A stretch of DNA of 64,000 nt from Candidatus Palauibacter sp. (GCF_965216145.1 NZ_OZ244149.1:417011-481010); one strand, 5' to 3'. Shown: positions 2,800 to 28,084, counted from the first letter of the stretch. Numbers and translations are program-made. The notes: generated by a model not told the origin, from the sequence alone.

Positions 2800-2878
2800 G
2801 GAAGGACCGAGAGATGAGGACTCCCGGAGACGAGCGTGAACGAGGCGCGGGACGTGAAGACGAGCATGGAGTCCCGCG

Positions 2879-3889
2879 TTGAGCGGCACCGATCGCCAGT
2901 GTCCGCTGTGTCTTCGGCAATGCGGAGGCGGCGGAGGTGAGTGGGGATATTGGTTTGATTGCGAAACGTGCGGGAAGTTCAGCGTCGAGCAGTACCTCAG
3001 GGCCAGCGACGCGACCAATGGTCTGACGGTTACACAGCGGTCCTGGCTGTCGCACTTCGCGCGGACGAAGTGGGACCTCCACGAGTCGTTGCCGAAGAGG
3101 GTTCCCGGCACCACTCCGGAGCCGACCCCTGCCGTGATCGACCGCAAGCTCGTGGAACAAGCCCGAAACGGAGACTTGGCCGTAACCCGTGCGCAGCAGG
3201 CGGCGAACGCGATCAGGCACATTGGAGATCGAGTCCTCGAGGGAGGAGGCGCCATCACTCTCCGATATGGCTCACCCAAGTTCGCAGCGGTCATCGGTGC
3301 TCCGAACTCCGGTAGTGCGCGGGAACTCATGGGCGAACTCGCCGCGGCGGACAGGGTCAAATGGAATGAACCGCCATACTTCCAAGGCGGCGAGGAACCG
3401 TATGCCAGTGCGGACCTTACGCTCACAGGCTGGGAGCAGTACGAGGAGATGAAGCACGGTTCGCTCGATGGAGGGTACGGATTCTTCGCGTGGCAATTCG
3501 GCGGCACAAGAACCGAGCCCATTTTCAAGGATGTCCTCAAGCCGGTCTTCAGGAAGCGGGGCTATCCGCTACGGGATATGAAGGATCTCTCCCAGCCCGG
3601 CCTGATCGACAACATCATGCAGGACCGGATCCGGGGCGCCTCGTTCGTCATCGTCGACCTGACCGACGGCAACCGCGGGTGCTACTGGGAGGGGGGCTTT
3701 GCACAGGCTCTCGAGAAGCCGGTCGTGTACATCTGCCATCAGGAAGCGTTCCACGACCCGGCCACGAAGCCGCACTTCGACACGAACCATTACACGGTCA
3801 TCTTCTGGGGTGCCGACAAGCCGAACGAGGAATTCGTCGAGGAGCTTATCGCGACGCTGCGGCGGCACCCCGGCGGACTGGATCTTTGA
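2879..3889 (+). CDS. Zinc-ribbon protein with C-terminal nucleoside 2-deoxyribosyltransferase-like (SLOG superfamily) domain
   Basis: N-terminal four-Cys ribbon (CPLC ... CETC). C-terminal FVIVDLTDGNRGCYWEGGFAQALEKPVVYICHQ matches the D..G...E.G.A.a..KPv signature of nucleoside deoxyribosyltransferase-like domains. Alternative (TTG) start per ORF track; 80 nt downstream of the preceding gene on the same strand. Confidence 0.6.
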   Translation: MSGTDRQCPLCLRQCGGGGGEWGYWFDCETCGKFSVEQYLRASDATNGLTVTQRSWLSHFARTKWDLHESLPKRVPGTTPEPTPAVIDRKLVEQARNGDLAVTRAQQAANAIRHIGDRVLEGGGAITLRYGSPKFAAVIGAPNSGSARELMGELAAADRVKWNEPPYFQGGEEPYASADLTLTGWEQYEEMKHGSLDGGYGFFAWQFGGTRTEPIFKDVLKPVFRKRGYPLRDMKDLSQPGLIDNIMQDRIRGASFVIVDLTDGNRGCYWEGGFAQALEKPVVYICHQEAFHDPATKPHFDTNHYTVIFWGADKPNEEFVEELIATLRRHPGGLDL

Positions 3890-4194
3890 CCGGGTTCATC
3901 GCCATGGACTGGTTGAGCGTCGGTCAGCGGACGGATGTGCTCGACTGCGGCGGCAACCGGTACGCGCAATCGACCGGCCAAGTGCGGTTCAACGTGGGGG
4001 TGAAGGCGGACTCGGAAACGGTCACGCGGTAACGGTGAACGCGGCGCTGCGCCGGGAGGAGCTGCTGCGCCCGTTGAGCGCGCCGTGGCTGACGTGTTAC
4101 TCTACCGGTGTGCCGCAAGCGGAGATCGCGGAAGCAGCGGAAAGATGGGTCAATCTGCCGGGTGAACCGATGAACAGAGAAGGGAACGTCACAG

Positions 4195-4419
4195 ATGCGT
4201 AATCCACCAACATCTAGTTACGACATTGTTAGTGGTACATTCGATCTTTCTATCGACGGAAGCACCGTAACCGTAAAGGGCGATATCAGCAGTACCTACA
4301 ACACGGCCCTTATCCCCATAAATGTATCGTTCGATGTGGACAACAACCCTATGGACTATTCACTACGGGAGTTGGGCAAAATGGCCATCGTGCAGCACTT
4401 TCAAAAGAATGAGAGTTGA
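4195..4419 (+). CDS. Small hypothetical protein (74 aa) in an AT-rich patch
   Basis: ORF in a locally AT-rich segment that contrasts with the GC-rich surroundings; no recognisable motif. Could be non-coding. Confidence 0.3.
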   Translation: MRNPPTSSYDIVSGTFDLSIDGSTVTVKGDISSTYNTALIPINVSFDVDNNPMDYSLRELGKMAIVQHFQKNES

Positions 4420-4517
4420 GGTCAATTGAGGTCCAAGCTCCACTAGTTGAAGACAACCACTTACATAGGGTGTGTAAATTGGCGACCCGTCCAAAAAGCC
4501 GGGAACACCTCAGGATT

Positions 4518-5354
4518 CTATCCGAGGCTGTCGCGCAGGATTCTCTCCAATTCGTCAACTACGGCCCGCATGTGCAGCTTGTCTTCCGGGCGCTCTTCAC
4601 TATTGCGTATCGTATCGACGACATTTGACCATGTCTTATGGATTTCGGGCAATCTGAGCATCTTGGGATCCGCATTTAGTGCTACGTGTAGCAGCTCTTC
4701 CGCGCGAGTAAGGTCGAAAGCGTCATACGCATTAATTTTTTTGATACAGGCAAGATGCTCATTGGGGAAGTCCAACATCTGATAAAGATTATCAATATCT
4801 CTTGACAGATAAGCAGTATCCTGAAGAGCGCTTACAACTTGCTCTGCGATGTCCGACATGTTTGACTGGTGTCGGATCGCGATGGCCTCCTCAACGGCGT
4901 TGGCCAAATTGTCCCGAATCCACTCGTACCGTTCTTCGCTACTTCGCCCGGGAGGATCGTAACACTTCACCACACGGGAAAGATCTTCATGTGCGCCGAC
5001 AGCGATCCTGAACGGATTCGGACCCCTTGCGGCCACATGTCCATCCCGGTTTCGCAGGCCGTGGATGCGAATCCCGACGACGCCCATCCCATCCTTCCAG
5101 GACTTCTCAATCTCGTATTCGACCCATGGCCGTCCGGTGGTGTGGGTTCCCACCAAGACCACCGTGCAGGAGCGTGCTCGCATCTGGTCGACGATCCACG
5201 CCCTGATGGCCGGAGCACCCTGACGCGTCAATTCCTCCCAACTGGTATCCGTCGCCGGTCTGTTTCCCTCAACCACGCCGATGTTCCGAACCGTCGCCGC
5301 TCGCCAGCGGTCGGTTTCGTAGTTAAAGCTGTAGAACACCCTTCGCTTTAGCAT
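4518..5354 (-). CDS. TIR-like domain protein (DUF1863 / ThsB-like) with AT-rich C-terminal helical extension
   Basis: Start set at the internal ATG (MLKRRVFYSFNYETDRW...), residue 94 of ORF 4518..5633. N-terminal VFYSFNYETD ... CTVVLVGTHTTGRPWVEYEIEKSW ... GVVGIRIHGL fits the flavodoxin-like TIR/DUF1863 pattern. Confidence 0.65.
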   Translation of the reverse strand: MLKRRVFYSFNYETDRWRAATVRNIGVVEGNRPATDTSWEELTRQGAPAIRAWIVDQMRARSCTVVLVGTHTTGRPWVEYEIEKSWKDGMGVVGIRIHGLRNRDGHVAARGPNPFRIAVGAHEDLSRVVKCYDPPGRSSEERYEWIRDNLANAVEEAIAIRHQSNMSDIAEQVVSALQDTAYLSRDIDNLYQMLDFPNEHLACIKKINAYDAFDLTRAEELLHVALNADPKMLRLPEIHKTWSNVVDTIRNSEERPEDKLHMRAVVDELERILRDSLG

Positions 5355-5454
5355 GCCGTTCCTCCACGGCTCCCATCCACTATCACCGGCGACCGCGGGG
5401 GCGACATCGGTCGGAGGAGCGAGAACGAGATAAGATGCAACTCGGACGCCAGTT

Positions 5455-8190
5455 CTATCGCGCGGGCCGGACGCCTCCCTTGCGGCGCAGACCGTAGCCG
5501 ATCCGGAAGACATCCGGGACATCGACGCGGTCATCCCGGAGGCGACGGAAGATACCCAGGGACTCCAAAGCCTCGCGGAGTTCATCGTGGTCATAATCCA
5601 TATGCGGCAGCGGGAGCCGCCACCCGTCTCCACTACCCGCCTGGGCCAGCTGCTTCAAGACGCGTCGCTCACGCCACAGATGAACGACTTCCTCGAAATC
5701 ACACGGAACAACCCGTCCGGAGAGCGGTTGCATCAGCACCTGCACCCATGGATAATCCTCCTGTAGCTCCCGAACCCGCGTCGTGGACGCCTCCCGCACA
5801 CCGTGCTTGATGCTCTGGTAGTGAAGGGCGTAGCCATGATCCGGATGGCGTTCATGAGAATCTTCCGCCGCTGAGCGCAACGCCGTGAGAAACGAGCGCG
5901 GACTGACCTTGCCCCCGGCGTCGGCGAGGTGGTTTGGGATCCATGTGTACGGGTATCCGCGTCTCCGATCAGTGCCCATCCACGGGCCCGCGAATTCGTG
6001 GAACTTGTCGCGCTGGGCCCCCTCGTCGCGGTCGAGCGGATACGGCACTTCGAAGCGCGGTGCCGTATCGTCATCAGTCGTGGACCAGTGTCCGTCCTGC
6101 AAGCGCGGACGGACGAGGTCACCTCGTGGACCGTTGGCCAGGGAATGCCAAAGCAGGCCGTAGAGATCCCGGCGCGGCCAGCTGAGATCGACAGCCGACG
6201 ACAACACTTTCGAAGCGTCCGGAAAGTCCGTGATCCGCCGCTCGTCCACCTGATCAGTTCTCAGGAAGATCTTCGCGCGCAAGCGGCGATACGGACGCAT
6301 GTCGAGGGCGTGCTCCAGCAATCCTCGAATCAGCTCGGACGCAGTCTGCCAGTCGGAGGCGGCGCGATCCAGAGCGTCAAATAGCACGACGGAATACACA
6401 CCCCTTGAGTCCAGTTCGACATCGATAGTCCGCAGGAGGTCGAGGACGACACTCGGGTCATCGAGGACGTACCTCGCGCGTTCAAGCCACGTATCGAACT
6501 GTCGTATCGGATGGTCGGCACCCGCCACCGCGCACGCATGCACGGTTCGCCAGATGATCCGGGGCTCCACGTTGTTGGCGATTAGTCGACAAAGATCGTC
6601 CCTCACCGGATAATCGCCCGGCACATTGGAGACACCGAATCCCGACTCGACGACTGAATCTTCGTTCAAAGGAAAGCCCCGCACCTCTCGCCCCAGCGAG
6701 CGACGAACCTCGGGACTCTGCAGGGCGCGCCACCAGAATGTCTTGCCTGAGCCGCGCATTCCAGTGACGAGCATCGTGTCGGGGTGCATGGCCTTTCGAT
6801 GCGAAGGCGGGATGTACACGGCCGACGACGGGACGGGCTCGCCGTAGCTCGCCGGATCGGGCAGCTCGCTGAACGCGAGGCGCACGGTCTCGGCCCGGGT
6901 CGGGTCGCCGACTGGCTCGGGGCTTCGGTAGAGCAGGTCGAACCGTCGGAGGAACTCCCTGTACGCTTGGGCCACCGTCGTTCGCTCCAGCTTCCGGAGA
7001 GAAATTCCGGCCGCGAACCCTCGTGTCCAATGGATCACCAGCGGATCATGCTGCCCCTCCTCGGACGACAGGTCAGCCGACACCCCCTCATCCGTTTCCC
7101 CGAGATCCACGATCTCGTCCTGCAGGCGATCCCGAAGGAGGATTCGTGCGTTTTCCCGGAACCGTTCGACGTACCGCTCGGTATCCGTCTCGGGCGTCAA
7201 GGCGGAGACGATCGACAGGCGTTCGCGTATCCGGGATGCCATGTTTGTGCGCGCCCAATGATCGAACAGAATCCCGTAGTCCGTCCAATGGCTGTCGGAG
7301 TCGACGGCGAACAGCATCACCTCCGCGTCCAGATCCGTCACCGTTGCCGCCGCAATATCGTGGAGGCCGCTCCGGCTCTCGATGAGCACGACGGTCGGGC
7401 TGAACTCCGTTTCCAGGTTCACCACCAACCGCTTCAAGCGACTCGTCCAAGGATCGATCGCCGTATCCATGTACGTGCGCCCGAGCTTTGCGAGGTATTC
7501 CCCCGGCTTCCTGCCGTGCGCCGGCGCCACCAGCACACGTCCCGGCAAGTCATGAGCCCAAGAGGGCTTCCCCGTCATCCGGCTCACGACATGATCTCCC
7601 TGTCCGACCAATTCTTCGACGAACCAGTCCGTGACGCCGAACTCCGGCTCGGCCGGGGGTTCCAACATGGCCGACGCCAGCCCGGGCGACTCTAGGTCCA
7701 AATCGATGACAAGCACATCCTCCGCCTGCCGGGCGAGGTGCCACGCCAACACCGCCGCCGTCGTGCTGCGCCCCACCCCACCCTTCACCGAGTATAGGAC
7801 GTAGCGGGCCGGGTGGTGTTCGCTCGACGGGTCCGGGACTGTCCACCATTCTTGGCCGACGACGAGCCGGTCGGCCCAATGAACGCCGGGCCTGATCAAC
7901 TGCGCCGTGTCGCCCAGCGTCTCCAGCAACGCGGGATCTACGAAGAGCACTGTCTTCTGCGGCAGGTGTCCGTGGGCCGCGAGCGCATCCGCCAAGCGAC
8001 TCGCCAAGCGGCTCAGCACTTCGCCGAGTTCGCGATCATCCTGGGCTGCTTCCGATACCGATATGCCGACCTTGCCGAAGAGGTTGCGCACGAGGTATAG
8101 CGGCGGTGCGTCGGCTGGGATCTCCATCCCTTCCAGCACCTCCGATACGAGCCGCCGCACTTGGTCGAACGGAACGAAGGTGTCGCTCAT
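5455..8190 (-). CDS. Dual-NTPase protein: ParA/MinD-like domain with deviant Walker A (KGGVGRST) plus a second P-loop NTPase (GMRGSGKT)
   Basis: Start at internal ATG (MSDTFVPF...), which overlaps the stop of the upstream 140-aa gene (ATGA). YSVKGGVGRSTTAAV followed by DVLVIDLDLESPG is ParA/Soj-like; LVTGMRGSGKTFWWRAL with later VVLFDALD gives a second Walker A/B pair. Confidence 0.7.
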   Translation of the reverse strand: MSDTFVPFDQVRRLVSEVLEGMEIPADAPPLYLVRNLFGKVGISVSEAAQDDRELGEVLSRLASRLADALAAHGHLPQKTVLFVDPALLETLGDTAQLIRPGVHWADRLVVGQEWWTVPDPSSEHHPARYVLYSVKGGVGRSTTAAVLAWHLARQAEDVLVIDLDLESPGLASAMLEPPAEPEFGVTDWFVEELVGQGDHVVSRMTGKPSWAHDLPGRVLVAPAHGRKPGEYLAKLGRTYMDTAIDPWTSRLKRLVVNLETEFSPTVVLIESRSGLHDIAAATVTDLDAEVMLFAVDSDSHWTDYGILFDHWARTNMASRIRERLSIVSALTPETDTERYVERFRENARILLRDRLQDEIVDLGETDEGVSADLSSEEGQHDPLVIHWTRGFAAGISLRKLERTTVAQAYREFLRRFDLLYRSPEPVGDPTRAETVRLAFSELPDPASYGEPVPSSAVYIPPSHRKAMHPDTMLVTGMRGSGKTFWWRALQSPEVRRSLGREVRGFPLNEDSVVESGFGVSNVPGDYPVRDDLCRLIANNVEPRIIWRTVHACAVAGADHPIRQFDTWLERARYVLDDPSVVLDLLRTIDVELDSRGVYSVVLFDALDRAASDWQTASELIRGLLEHALDMRPYRRLRAKIFLRTDQVDERRITDFPDASKVLSSAVDLSWPRRDLYGLLWHSLANGPRGDLVRPRLQDGHWSTTDDDTAPRFEVPYPLDRDEGAQRDKFHEFAGPWMGTDRRRGYPYTWIPNHLADAGGKVSPRSFLTALRSAAEDSHERHPDHGYALHYQSIKHGVREASTTRVRELQEDYPWVQVLMQPLSGRVVPCDFEEVVHLWRERRVLKQLAQAGSGDGWRLPLPHMDYDHDELREALESLGIFRRLRDDRVDVPDVFRIGYGLRRKGGVRPAR

Positions 8191-8609
8191 GGCGTCCCTC
8201 CCTGCGCAGCCCATTGAACCATCAGCCGAACCTCTGACGCCGCCCGACGATGCGGCTCGACGTAGGCCTCATCGAAGTTCCCCCGGCTGGCGTAGCGGTT
8301 ATGGTGCGACCAATCGGAGAACGGTTCCCCGCCCGGAAGCTGCGCAAGCAGCGCGCCCGCGCCTCGCTGCGCCGCGAACTGGTCGAACACGTTCCACAGT
8401 TCCTCGATATGTACGCGATGCGCCCGCTCTTCCGGCGCGCCGTCGGGGCGAACGAGCATACCAAGATTCTGCATGAGCGACTTCAGGCCGCACTCGGCGC
8501 TGAACCCGTACAACTGATCCGCGTTGGCCCAGCGACGCGCGGCCGACAGGTACTCGGCATCTTCCCAGTGTCGCTCGTGCGCGTCCTCGAAGTCCGCCGC
8601 GTAGATCAT
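8187..8609 (-). CDS. Hypothetical protein (140 aa), translationally coupled to the dual-NTPase gene
   Basis: Clean ORF starting MIYAADFEDAHERH; stop overlaps the downstream start. N-terminus resembles the methyltransferase C-terminal tail and the 65-aa orphan ORF. Contains RAHRVH, a weak R-x4-H HEPN-like hint only. Confidence 0.55.
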   Translation of the reverse strand: MIYAADFEDAHERHWEDAEYLSAARRWANADQLYGFSAECGLKSLMQNLGMLVRPDGAPEERAHRVHIEELWNVFDQFAAQRGAGALLAQLPGGEPFSDWSHHNRYASRGNFDEAYVEPHRRAASEVRLMVQWAAQGGTP

Positions 8610-8803
8610 GCTAGCTCATGGCCCCGCGCAGCGCGCGTCGTGTTCAGATCCATCAGACGAGCGAGCACCTCATTGCGCACGTCGCCCGGCGGTCGGGTCA
8701 ATAGGGTGTAAGTGCCATGAGGCGGCGACCTTCCGTGGCGCTCATGAGCGTCCGTGAAGTCAGCCGGATGGATCACGAGTCCCCGGCAAGAATAGATCGG
8801 CAA
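8606..8803 (-). pseudogene. Orphan 65-codon ORF: probable remnant of a gene 3' end, homologous to the methyltransferase C-terminus
   Basis: Translation ...HPADFTDAHERHGRSPPHGTYTLLTRPPGDVRNEVLARLMDLN aligns with the methyltransferase C-terminus ...HETDEDERRRARAPHRYRWPNEVRDEVLARLMALN. Alternative start, no upstream context; lies in the 418-nt gap after the truncated ATPase. Confidence 0.3.
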
Positions 8804-9027
8804 TCCGCATGTTCACCCTCCATGGTCGGCTCGTCGCCGTCTGCGGTGCGGTTTCGGCGGTCATGCATGATACTGTGGCGCTCCAAGTTAGACGCCGGAG
8901 CGGTTTCTTGCTCCACCGCAGCCTCGCACGGCTACTGCGGGACATCGCAAGAGGTCGTGTCGATCGACCCTCTTCCGAGAGCTCCGCGGCGGAACTCCGT
9001 CCGGTGAGCGTCCGTTTCCTAAGGGGG

Positions 9028-9822
9028 TCACGGCTGTTCTTGAGGGGGTGTAGCGCTTTCGGCAGCACAGGCGATGGCGTCAAGCTTCTCGCTCACTTCC
9101 GGATCGACATCCGCAGGCGGCATGTGGCCGACGAGCCGGTAGAAGTTGCCCTTCGGCATGAGGTTTGGCAGGCCCAGCTTCGAGAAGTACGCGGTGAGCA
9201 GCGGCTTCAGGAACTCCGTGCTCACCTTCAGGTCGGCGCCCCACGGCGACGGCTTCCCGAGACGCCGCACGTTCACGGCGCCCTCGTCGAGCCGGGTCTC
9301 GGCCGCAGCCAGCCCCGACATCGGCGGCAGGAAGGCCATCCTCACGCTCCCCGCCTCGTCGGGGACGGGCATGCGGTCGGGAACGCGATCCTCCGTCAAC
9401 CGCAGCGGACGGCAGTACACCGACTCGTCGTTCGCGTAATCGAACTCGAGCCCGCACGTCCAGGCACGCCCGCGGGTCACCCCCTCGACGATGATGTCGA
9501 TGCGGATGTTCCTCGTTTGCTGTTTACCGCCTACGTACCGCACATCTCGCACCCGAAGATCCCGCCACGCGAGCTTAACGCTCGGAATTGGAATGGACAC
9601 GAGATCGCGACGGTTGATGGTCACGCCCGGGCGTTTCTCGGGCGTTCTCTTGCCGGCCCGCTTGGCGTTCCACTGGGTCAGCCCCGTGTGCCACAGGGCG
9701 AGCGCCTGCATGGCGGAGGTCTTGCCCGAATTGTTGGGTCCGATGAAGACGACCGGGCTCCCGAGCTCGACTTCGACGTCTTCGAAGCGCTTGAATCTTC
9801 GAATGGTCAGCTTTGTCAGCAT
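9028..9822 (-). CDS. AAA ATPase N-terminal fragment (AAA_15/AAA_21-like, as in GajA/PtuA/OLD-family ATPases), probably truncated
   Basis: Start at internal ATG (MLTKLTIRRFKRFEDVEVELGSPVVFIGPNNSGKTSAMQAL). Walker A present, but no Walker B, signature or H-loop before the stop at 264 aa. Confidence 0.5.
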   Translation of the reverse strand: MLTKLTIRRFKRFEDVEVELGSPVVFIGPNNSGKTSAMQALALWHTGLTQWNAKRAGKRTPEKRPGVTINRRDLVSIPIPSVKLAWRDLRVRDVRYVGGKQQTRNIRIDIIVEGVTRGRAWTCGLEFDYANDESVYCRPLRLTEDRVPDRMPVPDEAGSVRMAFLPPMSGLAAAETRLDEGAVNVRRLGKPSPWGADLKVSTEFLKPLLTAYFSKLGLPNLMPKGNFYRLVGHMPPADVDPEVSEKLDAIACAAESATPPQEQP

Positions 9823-9901
9823 ACGACGCCACCACTTCCCGTCCGGTCGCTTGCATGCGGCTTCAGCCAGCAGAGCAGCGGAACCGCGCATGGCGCACTG
9901 C

Positions 9902-11272
9902 TCATCTGACCCCCTGGAACTCCGCATCCACTCGTTCCAAGTCACGTCTCAGGTCATTCGCCGCTTGGCGCGCAAGGCGGAGCCGTTCCTTCTGATTCCG
10001 GCACCGTTCGCCCAGTTCCGAATAGCATATGGACAGATTGAGAAGTGACGAGAACAGGCCTTGAGCTGCCGTGTCGACCGCCTTGAGATCTTCCGGCGAA
10101 AAAGGCAGATCGCTTCCGCGCTCACCAAGTTCTTGGCCTTGCCCCGCCAGCTCGCGTAGACGCAGATCGCACTCGTTCGGCGTGCTCTTACCCGCTTCGA
10201 GATCGGAGAGGACGCGGATCACATTTTGCACGAGAGGACGGCTGGCTGAAACAAGTGTCTTGATCTCCCTTAGCATGGGCCCCTTCTTGCCCGTATGCTG
10301 TCGATGGAATTCTCTCCAGTGCCCGTACTGGTGATTCCAAAGAATCGAGACACCATCCCAAACTTCGTCACCGTCCCACGGCATCGGACGACAGGATGGA
10401 TCGAGGCCCGGATCAACCCACTGAGTTCGCGCAATCCAGTTCGCGTGACGAACGTCGTCGTGTCCGCCCGCCACATAGAGGTATACGACGTCTGCTCTAT
10501 GCCCGGACCAAAGCGCCTCAAGTTGAGGACTTCGGTGGTATTCCTCTTCGCGAATCTCCGGAAGAGCCCGACTGATCACGTCCCTAACGCCATCGCGCCC
10601 CGCGTGGCGATCAACTACCAGCACCGCTGAATAACGCTTGGCACCCGCATGACTCACGTCCTCGAGCCGCACGATCTCGTACGGCAGGTCGCCCTTCACC
10701 GGCACTTCGAGGATTGCGTCGGGCGCACGACGCTGGCCACAGGCACACGTCCCGTCGTTACGGAACAGCTTCCCGTCCCGAGGGCAGATCTTCTCGTATG
10801 CGATGAGGAGCCGGGCGCAATCAACCGTATCGACGATGAGGTGTGGGACAGTCGCGTCGCTGGCCGTCTGCGCAAAGTCGCGTCGCGCATCATCCTGAAT
10901 GTCCCCTACGGCCATCAGCACTGCCAAACCGAGGTCCGGTATCGTTCGGAGCTTAGCGAACTGATGAGAAACGATTTTGCTCGTAACCTTCGGGAAGGAA
11001 GGACCCTTCAAGACGAAGCCGGCGGTAACCGGACGACCACGTAGGACGATCCGAGTCGTAACGATGTCGGCGATCTCCGTTGGACCGTGTGGCGTTTCGT
11101 TCGGGTCGAAGAGGATCTCACGAACTGCTGATTCCAGCGCACGTTCGTTCAACCGCCGAACCTCCGCGAGCACGTCGTCAGACACGCCTGTGGCTGGAAT
11201 CCGAACCACCTTGGCGAACTGATCGATTTCACCGAGCGCCACCAAACGGGCCCGGTTCACGCCGATCCCCAT
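9902..11272 (-). CDS. Hypothetical protein (456 aa) with Cys cluster and C-terminal coiled coil; candidate partner of the methyltransferase
   Basis: Start at internal ATG (MGIGVNRARL...), 29 nt after the methyltransferase stop. Contains CPRDGKLFRNDGTCACGQ and a charged C-terminal helical region. No confident family assignment. Confidence 0.5.
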   Translation of the reverse strand: MGIGVNRARLVALGEIDQFAKVVRIPATGVSDDVLAEVRRLNERALESAVREILFDPNETPHGPTEIADIVTTRIVLRGRPVTAGFVLKGPSFPKVTSKIVSHQFAKLRTIPDLGLAVLMAVGDIQDDARRDFAQTASDATVPHLIVDTVDCARLLIAYEKICPRDGKLFRNDGTCACGQRRAPDAILEVPVKGDLPYEIVRLEDVSHAGAKRYSAVLVVDRHAGRDGVRDVISRALPEIREEEYHRSPQLEALWSGHRADVVYLYVAGGHDDVRHANWIARTQWVDPGLDPSCRPMPWDGDEVWDGVSILWNHQYGHWREFHRQHTGKKGPMLREIKTLVSASRPLVQNVIRVLSDLEAGKSTPNECDLRLRELAGQGQELGERGSDLPFSPEDLKAVDTAAQGLFSSLLNLSICYSELGERCRNQKERLRLARQAANDLRRDLERVDAEFQGVR

Positions 11273-11303
11273 CCGGTCGTGAAAGACCTGTTCTGCCTTG
11301 TTC

Positions 11304-14300
11304 TCAAGTCGTTCCTCCCGCCGACAGGTGTTGCGTACCCTGCGCACGTTCGGAATTTAGAGCCATCAGGCGGGCCAACACCTCGTCCCGCACCTCGTTG
11401 GGCCAGCGATATCGATGGGGTGCCCTTGCACGGCGACGCTCATCTTCGTCGGTCTCATGGTTGAGCAGGAACTCGCATCGGGTAGGGATGTCGGACCAGC
11501 CGTACGCATCGAGGACGACCCGATCGATGTCCGCGTGAAGCTCGCGGAGCCTCGATACCGCCGGATCCGTTTCGTTCCGGTCGTGGAACCGGTTGTACGT
11601 CTTGGTCAAGCCCTCCTGGTTGTGAAGCATGAGGTCGCCGCGAAACTCGTAGTATGCCTTGCCGACTCGCTCCCGGACGGGATCTGCATGCCAGTCTGGA
11701 GGAAACGGGAAAGTCTCAAAGCAGTCGGACGGCGTGTACCGCAGCCGTTCCTCAAGCGTCGACCCGAAAAAGCGTGCCCAAACCTCGTGAACGCGGGATT
11801 GAAGGACGCAAAACGCTGCGTAAGTGTCCATGGAAAAAATCACAAGAGTGTTGGCGAAAACCATTCGGGCTGGAAGAAACGCTAATGCCAGATGGGGCGT
11901 GGCACCGCAGTTGACGGCCAACACTCGATTCAAATCCGCGATGGTCGCGTAGAGTCCTGCAGCTTTTTCGGCGTGTTGCCACCAACGCTCTCGACGCACC
12001 TTACGGTTCTGTCGCTCACGGTCGGGCTTCACCTTTTCTTCTAGAATCTGCACTAACTCTGGCCATCGCTCGCGGCACTCGTCCTGCCGACGCTTGCCAA
12101 AGTTGATCACGTAGCGGTGATGCGCTTGCGCGAGGCTCGTGTTGACCTCCTGCCCGCCAATGTAGGGGAAGATCACTTGCGCATTGTGCGGATCCTCAGC
12201 GATAAGCCTCCGCATTTCGGCCAAGGGCGTGGCCACTCCCTTGGTGTCGGTGTCGTCGAACGTGAAGCCCATGCCGAGGACGATGCTCCCCTGAAAGCTC
12301 TGCTCCGCGTTTTCCTTGAGCCGCGGCGGGTCGTCGTTCCCACCTGCGTGGAACAGAAATGCCGTGATCCGTTCGACGGCGGCGTCATCGAGCGATTTCT
12401 GGTGCCCGAACCTCCCTTTCACGATGTGCAGGACGCTGACCACTACAGCCGCAACGCCCGGCCACTTGAAGCGGGTTTGCGCGCGGTAGATCTCTCCGCC
12501 GCGCGTGCAGATCCAGCGGAGGCCCGTGGACCGGGTGTCGCCTTGCGAAATCGTGTTCGTCGCGATGAGGCCCAGCGTGCCTTGTTTGCGCAGCAGGTTG
12601 AACGACCGCCGGAAGAAGTGGGCGACCAAATCCGCGTTGCCGTGGCTCCGCGCGTGCAGTTCCTTGAGCCACAGCGGGTAGCCGGGGACGTTCGAGGCCG
12701 CGACGGTGTTCTTGCCCGCGAACGGCGGGTTCCCGACGAAGGCGTCAAAGCCCGGGTTCCGGCGCTCGAACACCTCCGGGAACTCGATCTCCCAGTGGAA
12801 CGGGGCGAACGGCGTGGTCTCCTTCCGTTTCGCGGCGAGGCGCCCCCCGTGGGAGAGAACGGCGAGGCGTTCCGTATCGCTGTCGCCCAGAAGAGACGCG
12901 AAGTGCTGCCGCCGGCGGGCCTCCCGCTGCCTCGCTCTTGTCTCGAGGAAGAACGCCTCCAGCGCCAGATCGCCGAAGAACCGGACGTCCGTCAGCGCCG
13001 CGTTCGCGTCGTCCAGCTTGTCTCGAAGTTCCCGCTGGTCGATGTCGGGCGGCGCGTCCCTGATCTCCCCGCGTAGCGCGACCACGCGGTCCACTGCGTC
13101 CGAGACCACGGTGTTCAGCTCCAGCTGGGGCGGCAGGGATCCCCTCTTCCAGGTGAAGGCGGCGATCTGCGGCTTCGCCAGGCCGACCAGGGAGTCGCCG
13201 TCGCGGAGGGCGTGGTCCACGAAGGTGAGCGGTTCGTCCTTGGCCAGGGTGGCCAGCCACAACGACATCTTGGCGAGGTCCACCGCCATGGGGTTGCGGT
13301 CCACGCCGTAGAGGCAGCGATGCGCCACGAGACGGCGGGCGAACAGATCTTCGTCCTCCCCGGACGGGAGAGCGGGGAGCGTTCCGTGCATCCGCCATGC
13401 GGTGACGAGATGGTCGCCCAGTTGGCGGCAGGCCTCGACGAGGAAGGCGCCCGAACCCATGGCGGGATCGCAGACCTTGAGATCGAGGATCTGCTCGGCG
13501 CGGGGCGGGCCGCCGTCTCCGAGGCGTTCGAGGATCGGTTCCAGCGCTTGCCGCACGATCGGTTCGGTGAGTTCGCGCGGCGTGTAGTGCGATCCCGAGC
13601 GCCGCCGCGCCTCGCTGGGCTGGAGGATCATCGCGCCGCGCGGCACCAGATCCGGTGTGGCCGCCGCGTCGATGACGTTGTGCAGGGAGGCGTGCGCGTC
13701 GGCGAGCGTTTGCGCCGCGCGGAGGGGCTTGCTCACGGTGGGCGTCAGCTTTCGGCCCGTCCGGTCAAGAATCCATTTCGGGCGATCGACGGGCGCAACA
13801 TCCAAGAGCAGTTCCAGATCCACCGTTGTCGAGGCTCCGAGCTTCTTCTGCGCCTTGACGGCGGCGGACCGGCCCGTCGCGGTCTCCAGCCGGAACCCCA
13901 TCATCGTCTCGTACACGGAGCCGATCTGCTCCACGTCGAGCGCGCGGTACGAGATCCGTTCGCCGTCGAGGACCAGCAGCTTGTCGAGCACCCGGTAGAT
14001 CGTTCCGTCCGGCACCAACGGAACGTCGATCCCCTCGTGCACCTGCGGTGCGCCGCTCCCGCGCCATCCCTCGAGGAACGGGAACCGACTCGGGCTGAAC
14101 AGTTCTCCGCGCCGCGGCGGGAGTCTCATTCCGTCGCACTCCGCCCCGTCGTGGACCATGCGAAACAGCACGACGAGCTGTGCCCACGCCCCGTAGCGCT
14201 GGTCCATCGTGTCCGGGTTGAGCGCCGCGTCCTCCCTCAGCCTCTCGTACAGTCCGCCCAGCGAATAGGAGCCGAGGAAGGTCGCGTCGTCCGACAACAT

Positions 14301-15359
14301 CCCGCGCTCTTCGGCGTAGAGCACGAACACGAGGCGCAGTACGACGGTGAGGAGCGCGCGGTACACGTTGTCCGGATCCTCGTCCAGCGCCTCGCGCAGA
14401 AGCTTACCGTGCGACGCGTCGTGCGCCGCCTGGAAGCCACGCAACAACTCGTGCAGGGCGTGCAGCACCTGCTCGGCCAGCCGCTCGCTGACCACGTTCT
14501 GGTACTTGCGGCTGCTCTCCAGAAGGGCCGCCAGCCGTTGCTCCCGCGGCAGCGCCAGCAGCCGCTTCTCGGAGAGGAGGAGGCGTAGCGCCGCACACAG
14601 CGGGCGGCCCGCCGTGGAGAGCATGTCGCCGACCCGGAAGTCCATCCACCCGGAACTCTCGCCCCGCGGCGCGGACATGAGCCGGATCACGCGTCCGTTG
14701 AAGAGCAGCCCGGCGGGGACCCCGGTGCGGCGCAGCAGCCGTTCCATGCGCCCGTGGGGCGAGGCCTCGAGCCGGCCCGCACCCGTGGCGACGCGATCGA
14801 GGTCCTCCCCGGGGTCGAGGACGGTGACGAGCAGTTGCCACGGCACGCCTCCCTCCGCCGGATCCCGTTCGCGCACGGCGAGGCGGGGCCGCAGCACATC
14901 CCGGTATTCCTGGAGGCTGACCTCCAATTCGGGAGGAATGGGCGAATCGCCTATGCCCGCGTAGCCGCTGGGCGAGAAGCGCCAGCCCAGGACGGATCTC
15001 GCAAACGCTTCGAAGTCGGGCAGGTAGGGTTCGGGTTCTGCCGAGGTGCCGAACGCGCGTTCCCGGACGCACTCGTTCAGAAGCCGCTGTCCCCCGATGT
15101 CCCGCCGGTCAAGCACCGCGCCCGCCTGGACGAGCGCGTGTGCGGACACCACGAGCCCGGTCGGCTGGATGAACCCCAGCCACTCGAGGTGGTCCCGGAC
15201 GTAGGGCGAGGGCTTGGCCACGCGGCTCAGCCGGTCTCGGGCCAGAGATACACGAGTCCGACCGGCTCCACGCGACGCGCCCGCACCCGATAGAAGTCCT
15301 CGATCCGCGCCGGCTCGTCGCGCAGGTCGCGCTCGAACTGCTTGAGCCGGTCCCGCCAC
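11304..15359 (-). CDS. Gamma-class N6-adenine DNA methyltransferase (PglX / type IIG / Eco57I-like), ~1350 aa
   Basis: Motif order X-I-IV: SGSHYTP, then DPAMGSGAFL (SAM-binding motif I), then FVGNPPFAGKN (catalytic NPPF). Long N- and C-terminal extensions. ORF-track start is an alternative codon overlapping the helicase 3' end; the true start may be about 45 codons downstream. Confidence 0.8.
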   Translation of the reverse strand: MAGPAQAVRARPARRAGADRGLLSGAGASRGAGRTRVSLARDRLSRVAKPSPYVRDHLEWLGFIQPTGLVVSAHALVQAGAVLDRRDIGGQRLLNECVRERAFGTSAEPEPYLPDFEAFARSVLGWRFSPSGYAGIGDSPIPPELEVSLQEYRDVLRPRLAVRERDPAEGGVPWQLLVTVLDPGEDLDRVATGAGRLEASPHGRMERLLRRTGVPAGLLFNGRVIRLMSAPRGESSGWMDFRVGDMLSTAGRPLCAALRLLLSEKRLLALPREQRLAALLESSRKYQNVVSERLAEQVLHALHELLRGFQAAHDASHGKLLREALDEDPDNVYRALLTVVLRLVFVLYAEERGMLSDDATFLGSYSLGGLYERLREDAALNPDTMDQRYGAWAQLVVLFRMVHDGAECDGMRLPPRRGELFSPSRFPFLEGWRGSGAPQVHEGIDVPLVPDGTIYRVLDKLLVLDGERISYRALDVEQIGSVYETMMGFRLETATGRSAAVKAQKKLGASTTVDLELLLDVAPVDRPKWILDRTGRKLTPTVSKPLRAAQTLADAHASLHNVIDAAATPDLVPRGAMILQPSEARRRSGSHYTPRELTEPIVRQALEPILERLGDGGPPRAEQILDLKVCDPAMGSGAFLVEACRQLGDHLVTAWRMHGTLPALPSGEDEDLFARRLVAHRCLYGVDRNPMAVDLAKMSLWLATLAKDEPLTFVDHALRDGDSLVGLAKPQIAAFTWKRGSLPPQLELNTVVSDAVDRVVALRGEIRDAPPDIDQRELRDKLDDANAALTDVRFFGDLALEAFFLETRARQREARRRQHFASLLGDSDTERLAVLSHGGRLAAKRKETTPFAPFHWEIEFPEVFERRNPGFDAFVGNPPFAGKNTVAASNVPGYPLWLKELHARSHGNADLVAHFFRRSFNLLRKQGTLGLIATNTISQGDTRSTGLRWICTRGGEIYRAQTRFKWPGVAAVVVSVLHIVKGRFGHQKSLDDAAVERITAFLFHAGGNDDPPRLKENAEQSFQGSIVLGMGFTFDDTDTKGVATPLAEMRRLIAEDPHNAQVIFPYIGGQEVNTSLAQAHHRYVINFGKRRQDECRERWPELVQILEEKVKPDRERQNRKVRRERWWQHAEKAAGLYATIADLNRVLAVNCGATPHLALAFLPARMVFANTLVIFSMDTYAAFCVLQSRVHEVWARFFGSTLEERLRYTPSDCFETFPFPPDWHADPVRERVGKAYYEFRGDLMLHNQEGLTKTYNRFHDRNETDPAVSRLRELHADIDRVVLDAYGWSDIPTRCEFLLNHETDEDERRRARAPHRYRWPNEVRDEVLARLMALNSERAQGTQHLSAGGTT

Positions 15360-18300
15360 GAGCGGATGTTGGCCCGAAGCTGCTTCCGGTCCTCGTCGTC
15401 GAGGGCGAGCGTGAGCTGGGGTTCCTTCTCGTGCCGCTGCAGCTCCTTCTCGACGCGATCCCGCTGGCGAGTCAGGGTCTCGCGCAGCTCCCCCGCCTCC
15501 CGCTCACCGCGCTCGCTGAGACGCTCGGCCGCCTTCTTCGCCAACTCCTCCGCTCTGGGTTCCAACTGGGGTCTCAAGTCGCCGATGTCTGCGGGGGCCG
15601 CGGCGAGCAGCCGTTCCCGCACGGTCTCGCTCGGCTGCGACACCCGTTCCGAGTCGAGCACCCGGTCGAGCAGGGCCAGCGTCTTCCGCTCCGCGTCCGC
15701 CCGGTATCGCTCCAGCGGGCCCTGGCGGCGTTCGGGGTCCGTCCAGCGGGCCGTCACCGTAACGATCTCCTCGTGCAGGCGCTCCGCGCGTCGGCCGTAT
15801 AGCGACAGGCGCCCCAGCAGCACGACCCGGGGGATGGAGTCGGCCACCTGCGCGAGACAGGCCCGCGACAGGTCGTGGTGCACGAAGCCCTGCGCCCGGA
15901 ACCGGGCCAAGAGGCGCTGCGCGACCCGCTGTTCAAGGTGCAGGTGCACGACATCGTCCGTCAGTTCGCCCGGATCCTCGAACACGACCGGGCGGACGGG
16001 CGCCTCCCGCCGCCACTCCACGATCTTCTGATCCCGCTTCATCGGTGCGCGCAGCGTGTCGAGGGTCGACGCCCACGAGGGGTCCGCCGCCACCCGTCCG
16101 TCGAGGGCCGGGAACGACCACACCGCCCGCCCGTTCTCGTCGCGCGCCTCCCTCAGCGGCGCCGCGTTCTGAAGCCCCAGCGAGCACGACAGCGCCCTGC
16201 GGAATGCCTCAGGACCGAACCGCACCCACTCGCGCGACTTCTCGAGCAGGTTCCGGCAGCGCTCGATCTGATCCTCAAGATCGCTTTGCCGCTCGCGCGC
16301 CGACTCGAACTCGTCCGCCACGCGGCGCTTGCGGTCCGCCTCCAGATCCATCCCCGCCAGCGTCTCGGCGAGCCCCGTGGCATCACGGCGCCGAATCCCC
16401 TGCTTGAGCCGCTTCTCGATGTCCTCCTCGATCACCTTCGAGAGGCTGCCCAGCTCCCGGCGGATGGTCTCGGTCTTCCTCACCAGCACCTCGAGCACCC
16501 GGTCTTCGTGACGCTGGGGCAGGGTGAAGTAGTGGCAGCGCACTTCGTCCGCGGGCTGGAGCTTGCGGTCGATCCGCCCGTTGCGCTGCTCGATCCGGCC
16601 GGGGTTCCAGGGCAGGTCGAAGTGGAATAGGTCGGTGCAGTGCGCCTGGAAGTTCAGCCCCTCGCGCGCCGCATCCGTCGCCAGCAGGATGCGCAACGGA
16701 TCCCGCGACGGAGGCGTGTTGAAGCGGCGCTGGATTTCCTTGCGCCGCGCGCCGCTCGTGGCCCCCTCGATCACGGCAATCCGCTCCTCCGCCCTGTCCG
16801 TTCCCGCGATCGCGTGCGACAGCGCGTCCCTGAGGAACCGCTTGGTGCCCTCCACATGCTCGGTGAAGATCAGCACCCGGCGCTCGTTCCAGCGGGGCGT
16901 CCCCACTGCAGGCATTCCAAAGGGCGGAAGTTCGGGACACAGGTTCTCCCGGATCCAATCGAGGAGCGCGCGCGTCTTCGCGTCGGGGTGCGTGCGCGCA
17001 GAGTCCGCGACCTCCTGCATGCGGTCGAGCAGGCGCTGCTCCTTCCGCCACAAGTCCTCGATCCGGGCATCGCGCTTCAACGCCGACTCGGCCTCCCGGT
17101 TGGCGGCCTCGATCTGTGCTTCCTCCGCAGCTTCCTCAGCACCGTCGAGGATCTCGTCGTCCGCCCCCGGTGTCGTCAGGAAATCCTCCGCCAGCGCCCG
17201 GCGCGCCGCTCCGCCGCGAGCGTGCCGCTCGTCGCTTCCCGCGTTGCGGCCGGTCCCGGCCTCCCATTGCCTCTTCACCGTCTTCCGGTGCCGCGCGAGA
17301 CTGATGGCGAACGCCTCGATGGACGACAGCAGGCGCTGTTGAAGGCCGACGACGAGCAATCCCGCCGCCGCCCGCCCCCGGGCCGTCGCGTGGGCGAAGC
17401 GCTGGTCGCGCACGGAGCGGTATTCGTCCAGCAGCCTTGAGAGCACGAGTTCCGGCGCGTCCTCCGGCAGGTTGTCGATGACGACCGGTCTCACGTCCCG
17501 CTTGGGGAAGCCGCCCTGGATCTCGCGGATGTCTTCCTTGAGACGGCGGATCATCACGGCGTCGAGGTCCGTCTTCCCGCGCACCGTCACGCCTCGCGTG
17601 AAGCGGTGCGGGTCGAGCAGTTCCAACAGCGTGGAGAAGCTGTTCGAGTGCCCGTTGTGCGGCGTCGCCGACAGGAAGAGACGATGCTCGAAGCGGTAGC
17701 AGAGGTCGCGAATCGCGCGCGTGAACTTCGACTCGATGCCATACCGCCCGCCGTGGCTTGGGGCGGCGTGATGCGCCTCGTCCAGAATCAGCAGGCTTCC
17801 GGGCGACATCGTTCCGAGCCACTCCCGCATAGGATCCGCGTAGGCGGGATCGGCCAACAGCCGGTGCGAAACGAGGAACCGGCTGTGCGTCCGCCACGGA
17901 TTCACGCCGAAGCCGCGCTCGCGGCGCATCGTCGCCACGTAGTGCCGGTCCAGGATCTGGAACACGAGCCCGAACCGCTCCTCCATCTCCGCCTTCCACT
18001 GCTCCAGCACCGAGGGAGGCGCGGCCACAACGATGGTCTTCGCCTTTCGGCGCAGGAGAAGCTCGCGCGCGATCAGCCCGGCCTCGATCGTCTTGCCCAG
18101 ACCGGTGTCGTCCGCGATGAACAGGTTCACGCGCGGCAGGCGGAGGGCCTTCCTCAGCGGCTCCATCTGGTAGGCGTCTAGGGTGATCCCGGCCCGGAAC
18201 GGCGCCTGAAACAGCGACGGATCGGTCGCGGTCGTGCAGCTCCACCGCAACGTGTTGAGGAAGGCCGCGAAGTACTCCGGCGAGTCGAAGCCGCGCTCCG

Positions 18301-19875: not shown

Positions 19876-19907
19876 TATGGGATCGGGGTCGTTCAGCGGT
19901 CTGGTGC

Positions 19908-23678: not shown

Positions 23679-23694
23679 GAAGCGGGAAAGACGC

Positions 23695-28077: not shown

Positions 28078-28084
28078 GGCGCGA

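What the first reader, a model, noticed from the sequence alone, without database searches (positions are those of the whole stretch)
8610..9822. Truncated AAA ATPase with a ~420-nt decayed spacer: remnant of an additional defence gene
The ATPase opens with a canonical AAA_15/21-type N-terminus and Walker A (as in GajA/PtuA/OLD-family ATPases) but stops after ~264 aa without Walker B, signature or H-loop. It is followed by 418 nt lacking a convincing ORF in the same frame. This suggests a disrupted Gabija/Septu-like or other ATPase-led system, or a deliberately shortened regulatory ATPase.
Basis: partly seen in the sequence, partly recalled or inferred. Interest (0 to 1): 0.5.

Follow-up and report, generated by a model that had tools for sequence, protein, structure and literature searches.

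The report
Defence ATPase gene gutted by deletion
The short ATPase is a roughly 580-residue ATPase-nuclease defence-type gene that lost its middle 316 codons in one clean in-frame deletion, and the 418 bases after it are normal intergenic DNA plus a small recombination scar, so this is ordinary gene decay in a defence island.

Summary
ORF 9028-9822 (minus strand, 264 aa) has an AAA_15 N-terminus and Walker A (9718-9741) but no signature, Walker B or H-loop. It is followed by 418 nt without a credible gene.

The gene is not cut off at its 3' end. It is an internal in-frame deletion allele of an unnamed ~580-aa ABC-ATPase + Toprim-like family, closest to OLD and PARIS.

A syntenic metagenomic contig, L090, is 73-95% identical in 500-nt windows. 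It has the same gene order: DrmD-like, DrmMI-like, orf452, ATPase, PDC-M28A, M28BC, TIR. Its ATPase is intact at 580 aa. Against L090 the window lacks exactly 948 nt (316 codons). The first 186 codons are fused to the native last 78 codons and stop.

No piece of the missing region lies in the spacer or elsewhere in the window. The spacer has two parts:
- 251 nt of conserved ATPase-M28A intergenic DNA (84% identical to L090).
- A 56-codon chimeric relic: the orthologous M28A start fused to the 3' end of a DrmMI-type gene.

The retained codons show no decay (window-specific changes 4 nonsynonymous, 21 synonymous). So the deletion is either very recent or the stump is still used. I favour a recent null allele. 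Interest is low.

The parts
9028..9822 (-). Delta-ATPase ORF, 264 codons plus stop. It is an internal-deletion allele of a ~580-aa ABC-ATPase + Toprim-like gene.
   Evidence: (P0001, 100% identical, 264 aa).
9265..9822 (-). Retained N-terminal 186 codons, the Walker A lobe of the ABC head. Walker A GPNNSGKT lies at 9718-9741.
   Evidence: tblastn places P0134 residues 1-186 at 9822-9265 with 79% identity. It is 92% aa identical to the L090 orthologue, dN/dS 0.108. Walker A translation.
9262..9267 (-). Deletion junction, codons CGG|CGT (R186|R187). L090 9997-10945 (codons V187-E502, net 948 nt) is missing here. No repeat or meaningful microhomology is visible at the junction.
9028..9264 (-). 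Retained native C-terminal 78 codons (helical tail domain) plus the native stop codon.
   Evidence: P0134 residues 487-579 map to 9312-9034 in the same frame. Alignments. The region matches L090 10946-11181 at 84%.
8777..9027 (-). Conserved ATPase-to-M28A intergenic region, not ATPase debris.
   Evidence: It is collinear with L090 11182-11432 at ~84% identity, with an indel that breaks any common reading frame. No Rfam hit. RNA fold z-score -1.5.
8606..8776 (-). 56-codon chimeric relic ORF (VIHPADFTDAHERH...DVRNEVLARLMDLNTTRAA...). Its TGA overlaps the ATG of PDC-M28A.
   Evidence: Translation. Both component similarities exceed all 1000 dinucleotide shuffles.
8735..8776 (-). Relic of the orthologous PDC-M28A start: GTG plus 13 codons.
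   Evidence: It aligns base for base with the M28A start of L090 (11433-11474). It matches the conserved M28A N-terminal motif PADFxDAHxRHW seen in 6 other loci.
8627..8690 (-). Relic of the 3' end of a DrmMI-type type IIG methyltransferase gene (motif RWPDDVRxEVLARLLELNxERA).
   Evidence: blastn matches the extreme 3' ends of DrmMI homologues in more than 20 independent loci, for example L023 at 78% over 64 nt, E=7e-8. Protein motif comparison. It is 69% identical to the window's own DrmMI 3' end.
8187..8609 (-). Intact PDC-M28A gene, the downstream neighbour.
   Evidence: PADLOC PDC-M28A, E=5e-48. 80% aa identical to L090.
9902..11260 (-). orf452, the upstream neighbour. It is an intact member of a 450-452-aa family of unknown function and lies next to the ATPase only in this lineage.
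   Evidence: There is an 80-nt gap to the ATPase start here, and 79 nt in L089 and L090.

Best explanation
**What the ORF is.** ORF 9028-9822 (minus strand) is a null allele of a single-gene ABC-ATPase + Toprim-like protein of about 580 aa. The parent family is unnamed and very widespread, and is closest to OLD nucleases and to PARIS AriA/AriB.

**What happened to it.** One illegitimate deletion removed exactly 948 nt (316 codons; V187-E502 of the intact orthologue) and kept the reading frame. The Walker A lobe (186 codons) now runs straight into the native last 78 codons and the native stop.

**What was lost.** The ABC signature, Walker B, D-loop and H-loop, and the whole Toprim-like nuclease domain are gone. 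By inference from ABC-ATPase and Toprim mechanism, the product cannot dimerise on ATP, hydrolyse ATP or cut nucleic acid. It should therefore have lost the parent's presumed abortive-infection or nuclease role.

**The 418 nt downstream.** This DNA is unrelated to the ATPase.
- 251 nt are the normal intergenic region upstream of the PDC-M28 operon.
- The rest is a recombination scar: the first 14 codons of the orthologous M28A gene are joined, through ~17 unassignable codons, to the last ~25 codons of a DrmMI-type methyltransferase gene.
- That relic sits immediately in front of an intact M28A gene.

**Shown versus inferred.** Shown: the deletion and its exact extent, the absence of the missing part elsewhere in the window, the synteny, and the identity of the scar components. 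Inferred: the loss of function, the defence role of the intact parent, and the order of recombination events.
For: **The parent family.** Its members are 576-585 aa, and at least 7,999 proteins match at E<=1e-10. P0001 aligns to residues 1-189 and 507-580 of full-length members, with nothing in between.

**No missing piece elsewhere.** tblastn of four family members (three full-length) against all 64 kb gives only two HSPs, both in one frame: residues 1-186 at 9822-9265 and residues 487-579 at 9312-9034. The next best hits have E>0.2.

**Synteny with L090.** L090 has the same gene order and an intact 580-aa ATPase.
- Window 18505-9265 matches L090 750-9996 at 89.4%.
- Window 9263-8735 matches L090 10946-11474 at 84%.
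- Window 8586-4855 matches L090 11456-15205 at 81%.
- The junction sequences show a codon-exact loss of 316 codons.

**Nature of the parent.**
- Pfam finds AAA_15 and AAA_21.
- The PADLOC AriA models score E~1e-21 to 1e-22, and the merged AriAB model scores E=2.7e-14 over residues 271-455.
- The best PDB sequence relative is Ts OLD 6p74, E=1.8e-9.
- Three of the five distinct genomic contexts examined put it at the end of type I R-M islands.

**The spacer.**

**Other deletion alleles.** In-frame variants in the family have different, scattered junctions and remove different domains (P0002-4, P0005-9, P0030, P0095). That pattern is expected of random decay, not of a designed short isoform.
Against: **No sequence decay in what remains.**
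- Window-versus-L090 dN/dS for the N-terminal part is 0.108, as low as for DrmD (0.099).
- With L089 as third taxon, window-specific changes in the N-terminal part are 4 nonsynonymous to 21 synonymous. The intact genes show 6:19 and 1:18.
- The 264 codons contain no frameshift or stop.

This fits a very recent deletion. My estimate is the last ~10-15% or less of the window-specific branch, assuming a baseline omega of about 0.05. It fits continued selection on the stump equally well.

**A withdrawn argument.** seemed to show an excess of substitutions at family-invariant positions. These residues are shared with the intact L090 and L089 proteins, so they are lineage-specific and not evidence of decay.

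**Limits of the evidence.**
- The structural models of the parent family are of low confidence (mean pLDDT 57 and 63). Only the C-terminal half is well modelled.
- The Pfam DUF4435 and Toprim_OLD models do not match.
- No reads were available to confirm the deletion in the source assembly.
Confidence: 0.8

Rival explanations
1. The 264-aa N+C fusion is kept because it does something. It could be a non-catalytic modulator, a decoy or a dominant-negative partner for a full-length paralogue or for the neighbouring DrmD/DrmMI or PDC-M28 modules.
For: - The ORF is intact and in frame.
- Window-specific substitutions are 4 nonsynonymous to 21 synonymous in the N-terminal part, and dN/dS against L090 is 0.108.
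- At least 8 independent in-frame N+C deletion variants of the family exist. One of them (291 aa) occurs as three slightly diverged sequences.
Against: - No other protein shares this junction, and P0001 is a singleton cluster.
- The other variants have scattered junctions and remove different domains: Toprim only in P0005, Walker B only in P0009. There is no common short architecture.
- The search that found them was biased towards short proteins carrying both ends.
- No full-length paralogue lies in the 64-kb window.
- Half an ABC head without signature or Walker B has no known autonomous activity (established ABC/SMC/Rad50 mechanism).
Confidence: 0.12
2. The deletion is not in the organism. 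It would be an assembly collapse, or a minority structural variant chosen by the assembler, and the real genome carries the full 580-aa gene.
For: The window comes from a metagenome-assembled 4.3-Mb contig. No reads could be inspected. Related contigs in this collection come from complex metagenomes.
Against: - No repeat or meaningful microhomology is visible at the junction that could cause a collapse.
- The loss is exactly 316 codons.
- Comparable in-frame deletions occur in unrelated samples.
- The flanks are collinear with L090 on both sides.
Confidence: 0.05
3. One reading: a Gabija- or Septu-type, ATPase-led multi-gene system whose ATPase was truncated at its 3' end, with the frameshifted C-terminal remains decaying in the 418-nt spacer.
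For: PADLOC GajA and PtuA models hit the first ~45 residues. Foldseek's top hit for the first parent model is GajA 8sm3_A, E=2e-4.
Against: - There is no similarity to residues 190-486 in any frame of the spacer or the window.
- The native C-terminus and stop are retained.
- The spacer is homologous to the intergenic DNA of L090 and to M28A and DrmMI fragments.
- No GajB/UvrD or PtuB/HNH gene lies next to it.
- Full-length relatives are solo genes with varying neighbours.
Confidence: 0.02

Closest known systems
PARIS (AriA ABC ATPase + AriB DUF4435/Toprim nuclease, including merged AriAB forms; PMC11464382)
   Same: - The parent family has an AAA_15/AAA_21 head.
- The PADLOC AriA models and the merged AriAB model both hit.
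- Like PARIS, it tends to sit beside restriction-type systems.
   Different: - The Pfam DUF4435 model does not match.
- The AriAB model covers only residues 271-455.
- There is an extra ~100-aa C-terminal helical domain.
- No trigger (Ocr-like) or tRNA target has been tested.
- The window copy lacks the C-lobe of the ATPase and the whole Toprim-like part.
OLD-family nucleases (P2 Old, class 2 OLD from Thermus scotoductus 6p74 and Burkholderia 6nk8, Gabija GajA)
   Same: - ATPase and Toprim lie in a single polypeptide.
- The best PDB relative by sequence profile is 6p74, E=1.8e-9.
- GajA is the top Foldseek hit.
   Different: - Sequence similarity is confined to the first ~45 residues and the Walker B region.
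- The Toprim_OLD Pfam model is not detected.
- There is no GajB-like helicase partner.
- The family is far more conserved (58-91% identity to the search query; mean ~77% between members over the retained columns) across several phyla than typical OLD or Gabija genes.
Septu / retron-associated PtuA
   Same: It has the same AAA_15-type N-terminus. PtuA structures appear among the fold hits.
   Different: There is no PtuB HNH partner. The parent carries its own Toprim-like domain.
Intact orthologue in contig L090 (ENA ERZ25067264 ctg749237_6x_l) and in L089
   Same: L090 has the same gene order and L089 has the same orf452-ATPase pair. The retained N-terminal part is 92% aa identical to L090 and the C-terminal part 73%. 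The orf452-to-ATPase gap is 79-80 nt in all three loci.
   Different: The orthologues are 580-581 aa with all motifs. L090 lacks the M28A/DrmMI relic in front of M28A.

Membership tests
ABC-type AAA_15/AAA_21 ATPases (Pfam PF13175/PF13304) | N-terminal strand plus Walker A P-loop | tested here: met
   AAA_15 scores E=4.8e-9, above its cutoff, over residues 42-84 of the 305-aa form. GPNNSGKT lies at 9718-9741.
ABC-type AAA_15/AAA_21 ATPases (Pfam PF13175/PF13304) | ABC signature, Walker B, D-loop and H-loop in the C-terminal lobe | tested here: not met
   These are absent from the ORF and from every frame of the window. They are present in the orthologue L090 as LSSSGRGLQQ, LLLDEPDAHLE and ASHSE.
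Unnamed ~580-aa ATPase + Toprim-like family (P0134, L090 orthologue) | Full-length collinear similarity and ~580-aa length | tested here: not met
   Only residues 1-186 and 503-580 are present, and 316 codons are missing. The ORF is a deletion derivative by descent, shown by synteny and 92%/73% identity, not an intact member.
Gabija (GajA + GajB) | GajA ATPase with a C-terminal Toprim nuclease domain | tested here: not met
   The GajA models match only the first ~45 residues. There is no Toprim segment in the window copy.
Gabija (GajA + GajB) | Adjacent GajB UvrD-like helicase | tested here: not met
   The neighbours are orf452, with no Pfam, PADLOC or NCBIfam hit, and PDC-M28A.
Septu (PtuA + PtuB) | Adjacent PtuB HNH nuclease | tested here: not met
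   No HNH or PtuB hit was found in either neighbour.
PARIS (AriA + AriB or merged AriAB) | AriA-type ABC ATPase | tested here: inconclusive
PARIS (AriA + AriB or merged AriAB) | DUF4435/Toprim nuclease effector | tested here: inconclusive
PARIS (AriA + AriB or merged AriAB) | Activation by an anti-restriction protein (Ocr) and tRNA cleavage | not testable with these tools
   This needs experiments. The mechanism is as described in PMC11464382.

The most novel reading that the evidence does not exclude
The stump is not junk. A Walker-A lobe fused to the C-terminal helical domain would be kept under purifying selection as a non-catalytic modulator or decoy, for example one that titrates a phage trigger or tempers a toxic full-length ATPase-nuclease. 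Recurrent in-frame N+C deletion alleles of this very widespread, unnamed OLD/PARIS-like family would then be a route by which defence islands make such regulators.
Probability: 0.1. Interest if true: 0.5.

Novelty: new member of a known kind. Interest (0 to 1): 0.25.

Why it matters
On its own this is a clear example of defence-island turnover. A single-gene ATPase-nuclease was knocked out by one clean deletion, next to a small scar left by recombination among DrmMI-type and PDC-M28 modules. It is useful for annotation. The deposited record calls the product simply 'AAA family ATPase', which hides that it lacks every catalytic motif except Walker A.

The more interesting by-product is the parent family.
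- It is ~580 aa, and several thousand proteins in the searched database match it.
- Members are 58-91% identical to the search query across several phyla.
- No whole-protein model for it was found in the copies of Pfam, NCBIfam or PADLOC searched here.
- It has an OLD/PARIS-like architecture and is often placed at the edge of restriction-type islands.

If it is a PARIS-like guard of restriction systems, it would be a common and untested one.

Tried and rejected
**Relaxed-selection test by deviations at family-invariant columns.** P0001 looked like an outlier against 117 full-length members: 10 of 135 columns against a mean of 0.9. Against a reference set chosen for similarity to itself it was only in the top ~10%. 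The deviant residues turned out to be shared with the intact L090 and L089 orthologues. I rejected this as evidence of decay.

**Searches of the spacer.**
- PADLOC on seven inter-stop reading-frame pieces of the minus strand gave nothing.
- Rfam on 8300-10100 gave nothing.
- The promoter and terminator scan gave nothing.
- The RNA fold of 8777-9027 was not unusual, z -1.5.

**Searches for related loci.**
- The first genome-contig scan, with M28BC as query, found no relatives.
- The scan with DrmMI gave 80 loci, none with the ATPase family or orf452 within 10 kb. None had M28A directly abutting DrmMI on the same strand. The donor arrangement implied by the scar was therefore not found.

**Other tests that led nowhere.**
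- I looked for an identity step across the scar to date the recombination. Identity to L090 is mosaic (73-95% in 500-nt windows) with no clean step there.
- Conserved DNA between family loci starts at the start codon and ends near the stop. There is no sign that the ATPase rides on a larger mobile unit.
- The family has no match in the plasmid or phage collections.
- Truncated family members end at many different points between residues 165 and 449, with no sign of a shared breakpoint. Many may be contig ends or frameshift errors, so I drew no conclusion about how common decay is.
- Structure prediction of the parent gave low overall confidence twice. Only domain-level fold matches were used.

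Full report
**Setting.** All relevant genes lie on the minus strand. In 5' to 3' order they are:
- a DrmD-like SNF2 helicase (15227-18589; PADLOC DrmD E=0);
- a DrmMI-like type IIG methyltransferase (11304-15359; PADLOC DrmMI E=0);
- orf452 (9902-11260);
- the short ATPase (9028-9822);
- the 418-nt gap (8610-9027);
- PDC-M28A (8187-8609; E=5e-48);
- a fused PDC-M28B+C protein (5455-8214);
- a ThsB-like TIR protein (4518-5633).

The exact 264-aa protein is deposited as 'AAA family ATPase [Candidatus Palauibacter sp.]' on a 4.3-Mb contig. The larger ORFs tested upstream of DrmD look like housekeeping genes or gave no match, and no DrmA, DrmB or DrmC was found there.

**The observation.** It is correct as written. 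The ORF starts MLTKLTIRRFKRF, has Walker A GPNNSGKT at 9718-9741 and matches only the first ~45 profile positions of AAA_15, AAA_23 and AAA_21. It stops after 264 codons with no signature, Walker B or H-loop. The following 418 nt have no ORF with any family match, no Rfam match and no promoter- or terminator-like site.

**What the ORF is.** A search of 5.8 billion protein clusters showed two things:
- The first ~185 residues are 60-80% identical to many proteins from several phyla.
- The last ~75 residues match only a few of them.

Alignment explained this. The C-terminal 75 residues correspond to the extreme C-terminus of the same family. A profile search then showed the normal length is 576-585 aa, with at least 7,999 proteins at E<=1e-10. 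P0001 aligns to residues 1-189 and 507-580 of full-length members. The intervening ~317 residues are absent. They carry LSSSGRGLQQ, LLLDEPDAHLE, ASHSE and a conserved LYLEGSTDL segment.

tblastn of four family members (three full-length) against the whole window gives only two HSPs, both in the same frame: residues 1-186 at 9822-9265 and residues 487-579 at 9312-9034. Every other hit has E>0.2. The missing part is therefore neither frameshifted into the spacer nor moved elsewhere in the window.

**The syntenic control.** Homologues of the upstream gene orf452 led to two contigs, L089 and L090, where orf452 is followed after 79 nt by an intact 580-581-aa ATPase. L090 has the whole gene order of the window: SNF2 helicase, type IIG methyltransferase, orf452, ATPase (580 aa), M28A, fused M28BC, TIR. 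blastn gives three collinear blocks:

| Window | L090 | Identity |
|---|---|---|
| 18505-9265 | 750-9996 | 89.4% |
| 9263-8735 | 10946-11474 | 84% |
| 8586-4855 | 11456-15205 | 81% |

L090 9997-10945 has no counterpart in the window. The net loss is 948 nt, or 316 codons (V187 to E502). At the junction the window reads ...AAC GTG CGG | CGT CTC GGG AAG.... L090 reads ...AAC GTG CGG GTC GGA... on the left and ...GAG AGT CTC GAG AAG... on the right. The break is codon-exact, with no repeat and at most 1-2 nt of microhomology, which points to illegitimate recombination or slippage. An indel sequencing error cannot explain it.

**What the parent protein is.**
- Pfam sees only AAA_15, AAA_21 and SMC_N. 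NCBIfam has no whole-protein model.
- PADLOC gives partial hits to NsnB, AriA, mad3 and the merged AriAB model (E=2.7e-14, residues 271-455).
- By sequence profile the nearest solved structure is the Thermus OLD nuclease 6p74 (E=1.8e-9), followed by Rad50, SMC, GajA and PtuA heads.
- Two AlphaFold models were of low overall confidence (mean pLDDT 57 and 63). In both, the C-terminal half is mostly well modelled (blocks mostly 70-93).
- The nearly invariant E369, the invariant G370, T372, E450 and E452, and the nearly invariant D373 and D429 fit a Toprim-type acidic site. That reading is inference.

So the parent is a single-polypeptide ABC ATPase + Toprim-like protein of the OLD/PARIS kind. The PARIS literature notes that AriA and AriB are occasionally merged (PMC11464382). 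Membership of PARIS proper is not established, because the DUF4435 HMM does not match.

The gene is a solo module. Conserved DNA between loci begins at the start codon and ends near the stop, and the neighbours differ between loci. In three of the five distinct contexts it sits at the far end of type I R-M islands. orf452 accompanies it only in the window, L089 and L090.

**Consequence for the window copy.** By established ABC/SMC/Rad50 mechanism, ATP-driven dimerisation and hydrolysis need the signature, Walker B, D-loop and H-loop of the C-terminal lobe. All are deleted, together with the presumed nuclease domain. The 264-aa product should therefore be inert as an ATPase-nuclease. This is inferred, not shown.

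**Is the stump decaying?** My first test suggested so, but it was misleading. The 'deviant' residues are shared with the intact L090 and L089 proteins.

Direct tests show no decay.

| Gene (window vs L090) | dN/dS |
|---|---|
| ATPase, N-terminal 186 codons (dS 0.41) | 0.108 |
| DrmD | 0.099 |
| DrmMI | 0.170 |
| orf452 | 0.297 |
| M28A | 0.283 |
| M28BC | 0.217 |
| ATPase, C-terminal 78 codons | 0.42 |

With L089 as third taxon, lineage-specific changes (nonsynonymous: synonymous) are as follows.

| Part | Window | L090 (intact) | L089 (intact) |
|---|---|---|---|
| N-terminal 186 codons | 4:21 | 6:19 | 1:18 |
| C-terminal 78 codons | 6:1 | 3:2 | 10:4 |

The C-terminal part looks loosely constrained in the intact genes as well, although the counts are small. 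Either the deletion is very recent or the stump remains under selection.

I favour recency for three reasons.
- P0001 is a singleton.
- No other protein shares its junction.
- The other in-frame deletion variants (P0002-4, P0005-9, P0030, P0095) have scattered junctions and remove different domains.

That search was biased towards short proteins, so I draw no conclusion about how common decay is.

**The 418-nt spacer.** It has three parts.
1. 9027-8777 is collinear with the ATPase-M28A intergenic region of L090 at ~84% identity. A 1-nt indel breaks any shared frame.
2. 8776-8735 (GTG ATC CAT CCG GCT GAC TTC ACG GAC GCT CAT GAG CGC CAC; VIHPADFTDAHERH) aligns base for base with the true start of M28A in L090. 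It matches the conserved M28A N-terminal motif in six other loci. After codon 14 the similarity ends.
3. 8690-8627 encodes DVRNEVLARLMDLNTTRAA, the conserved extreme C-terminal motif of DrmMI-type enzymes (RWPDDVRxEVLARLLELNxERA). It gives blastn hits to the very 3' ends of DrmMI homologues in more than 20 independent loci (for example L023, 78% over 64 nt, E=7e-8).

Both similarities in parts 2 and 3 exceed all 1000 dinucleotide shuffles.

Parts 2 and 3 form one 56-codon ORF (8606-8776), whose TGA overlaps the ATG of the intact M28A gene. L090 has a single M28A start and no DrmMI relic.

The simplest reading is a recombination scar. An L090-like segment, ending inside the M28A 5' end, was joined illegitimately to a segment in which a DrmMI-type gene directly preceded M28A. 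PDC-M28-like genes do lie within 10 kb of DrmMI in 7 of 80 DrmMI loci. However, I found no extant locus with the exact donor arrangement, and identity to L090 is mosaic without a clean step at the scar. The order of events is unresolved.

**Verdict.** This is the remnant of an additional defence-type gene. It is an internally deleted, single-gene OLD/PARIS-like ATPase-Toprim, not a 3'-truncated Gabija or Septu ATPase, and the spacer is not its debris. This is ordinary decay and turnover in a defence island, documented to the base. Interest is low (0.25). The unnamed parent family is the more promising lead.

Noticed in passing
L001 8001-9743, L002 8001-9743, L090 9439-11181 (parent family of window 9028-9822): This is an unnamed ~580-aa ABC-ATPase + Toprim-like family. 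At least 7,999 proteins match at E<=1e-10, and members are 58-91% identical to the search query across several phyla. No whole-protein model for it was found in Pfam, NCBIfam or PADLOC. It has no match in the plasmid or phage collections. It is often the last gene of type I R-M islands, and in two of those contexts it lies next to SbcCD.
   Followed up: partly
L004 6241-6681 and L005 6268-6708: A 146-aa N-terminal fragment copy of the same ATPase lies about 1.3 kb upstream of an intact copy. Its first ~240 nt are 81-94% identical to family genes in other loci. It is a second kind of relic of this family.
   Followed up: no
window 5455-8214 (-); L090 11855-14596; L007 and L008: PDC-M28B (KGGVGR-type ParA-like ATPase) and PDC-M28C (Sll1717-family P-loop protein) are fused into one 913-919-aa protein in the window and in L090. 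They are separate genes on the Tistrella and Burkholderia plasmids.
   Followed up: no
L029, L037, L046, L047, L049, L084, L086: PDC-M28-like genes lie within 10 kb of a DrmMI-type gene in 7 of 80 DrmMI loci, several of them with a ThsB-like TIR gene nearby. This suggests a recurrent association of these modules.
   Followed up: partly
window 9902-11260 (-): orf452 belongs to a tightly length-conserved family (mostly 450-452 aa) of hypothetical proteins with no Pfam domain. Members occur in bacteria and in archaeal MAGs. The N-terminal third shows an E-x-x-D ... V-L-K-G pattern reminiscent of PD-(D/E)xK nucleases. That reading is from the sequence only and was not tested.
   Followed up: partly
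window 11012-12505 (-), 3' third of DrmMI and start of orf452: Identity to L090 drops from 92-95% to 73-81% here. In DrmMI this covers the target-recognition-domain region, as expected if the specificity domain has been exchanged by recombination.
   Followed up: no
window 15227-18589 and 18590-32018: Only the DrmD-like and DrmMI-like genes of DISARM were found. The next large ORFs are FG-GAP/ASPIC, DUF3500 and peptidase S9 proteins. A 415-aa HATPase_c/STAS-like protein gives only a partial DrmA-model hit. The 'DISARM' here appears incomplete, or is a two-gene helicase-methyltransferase module.
   Followed up: partly
window 4200-4900: G+C drops to 43-47%, against 60-70% around it, at and beyond the 3' end of the TIR gene. 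This may be the edge of the island.
   Followed up: no
window 8777-9027: The non-coding ATPase-M28A intergenic region is as conserved against L090 (84%) as the flanking coding DNA. It has no Rfam hit and no unusual predicted fold. It may hold control elements of the M28 operon.
   Followed up: partly
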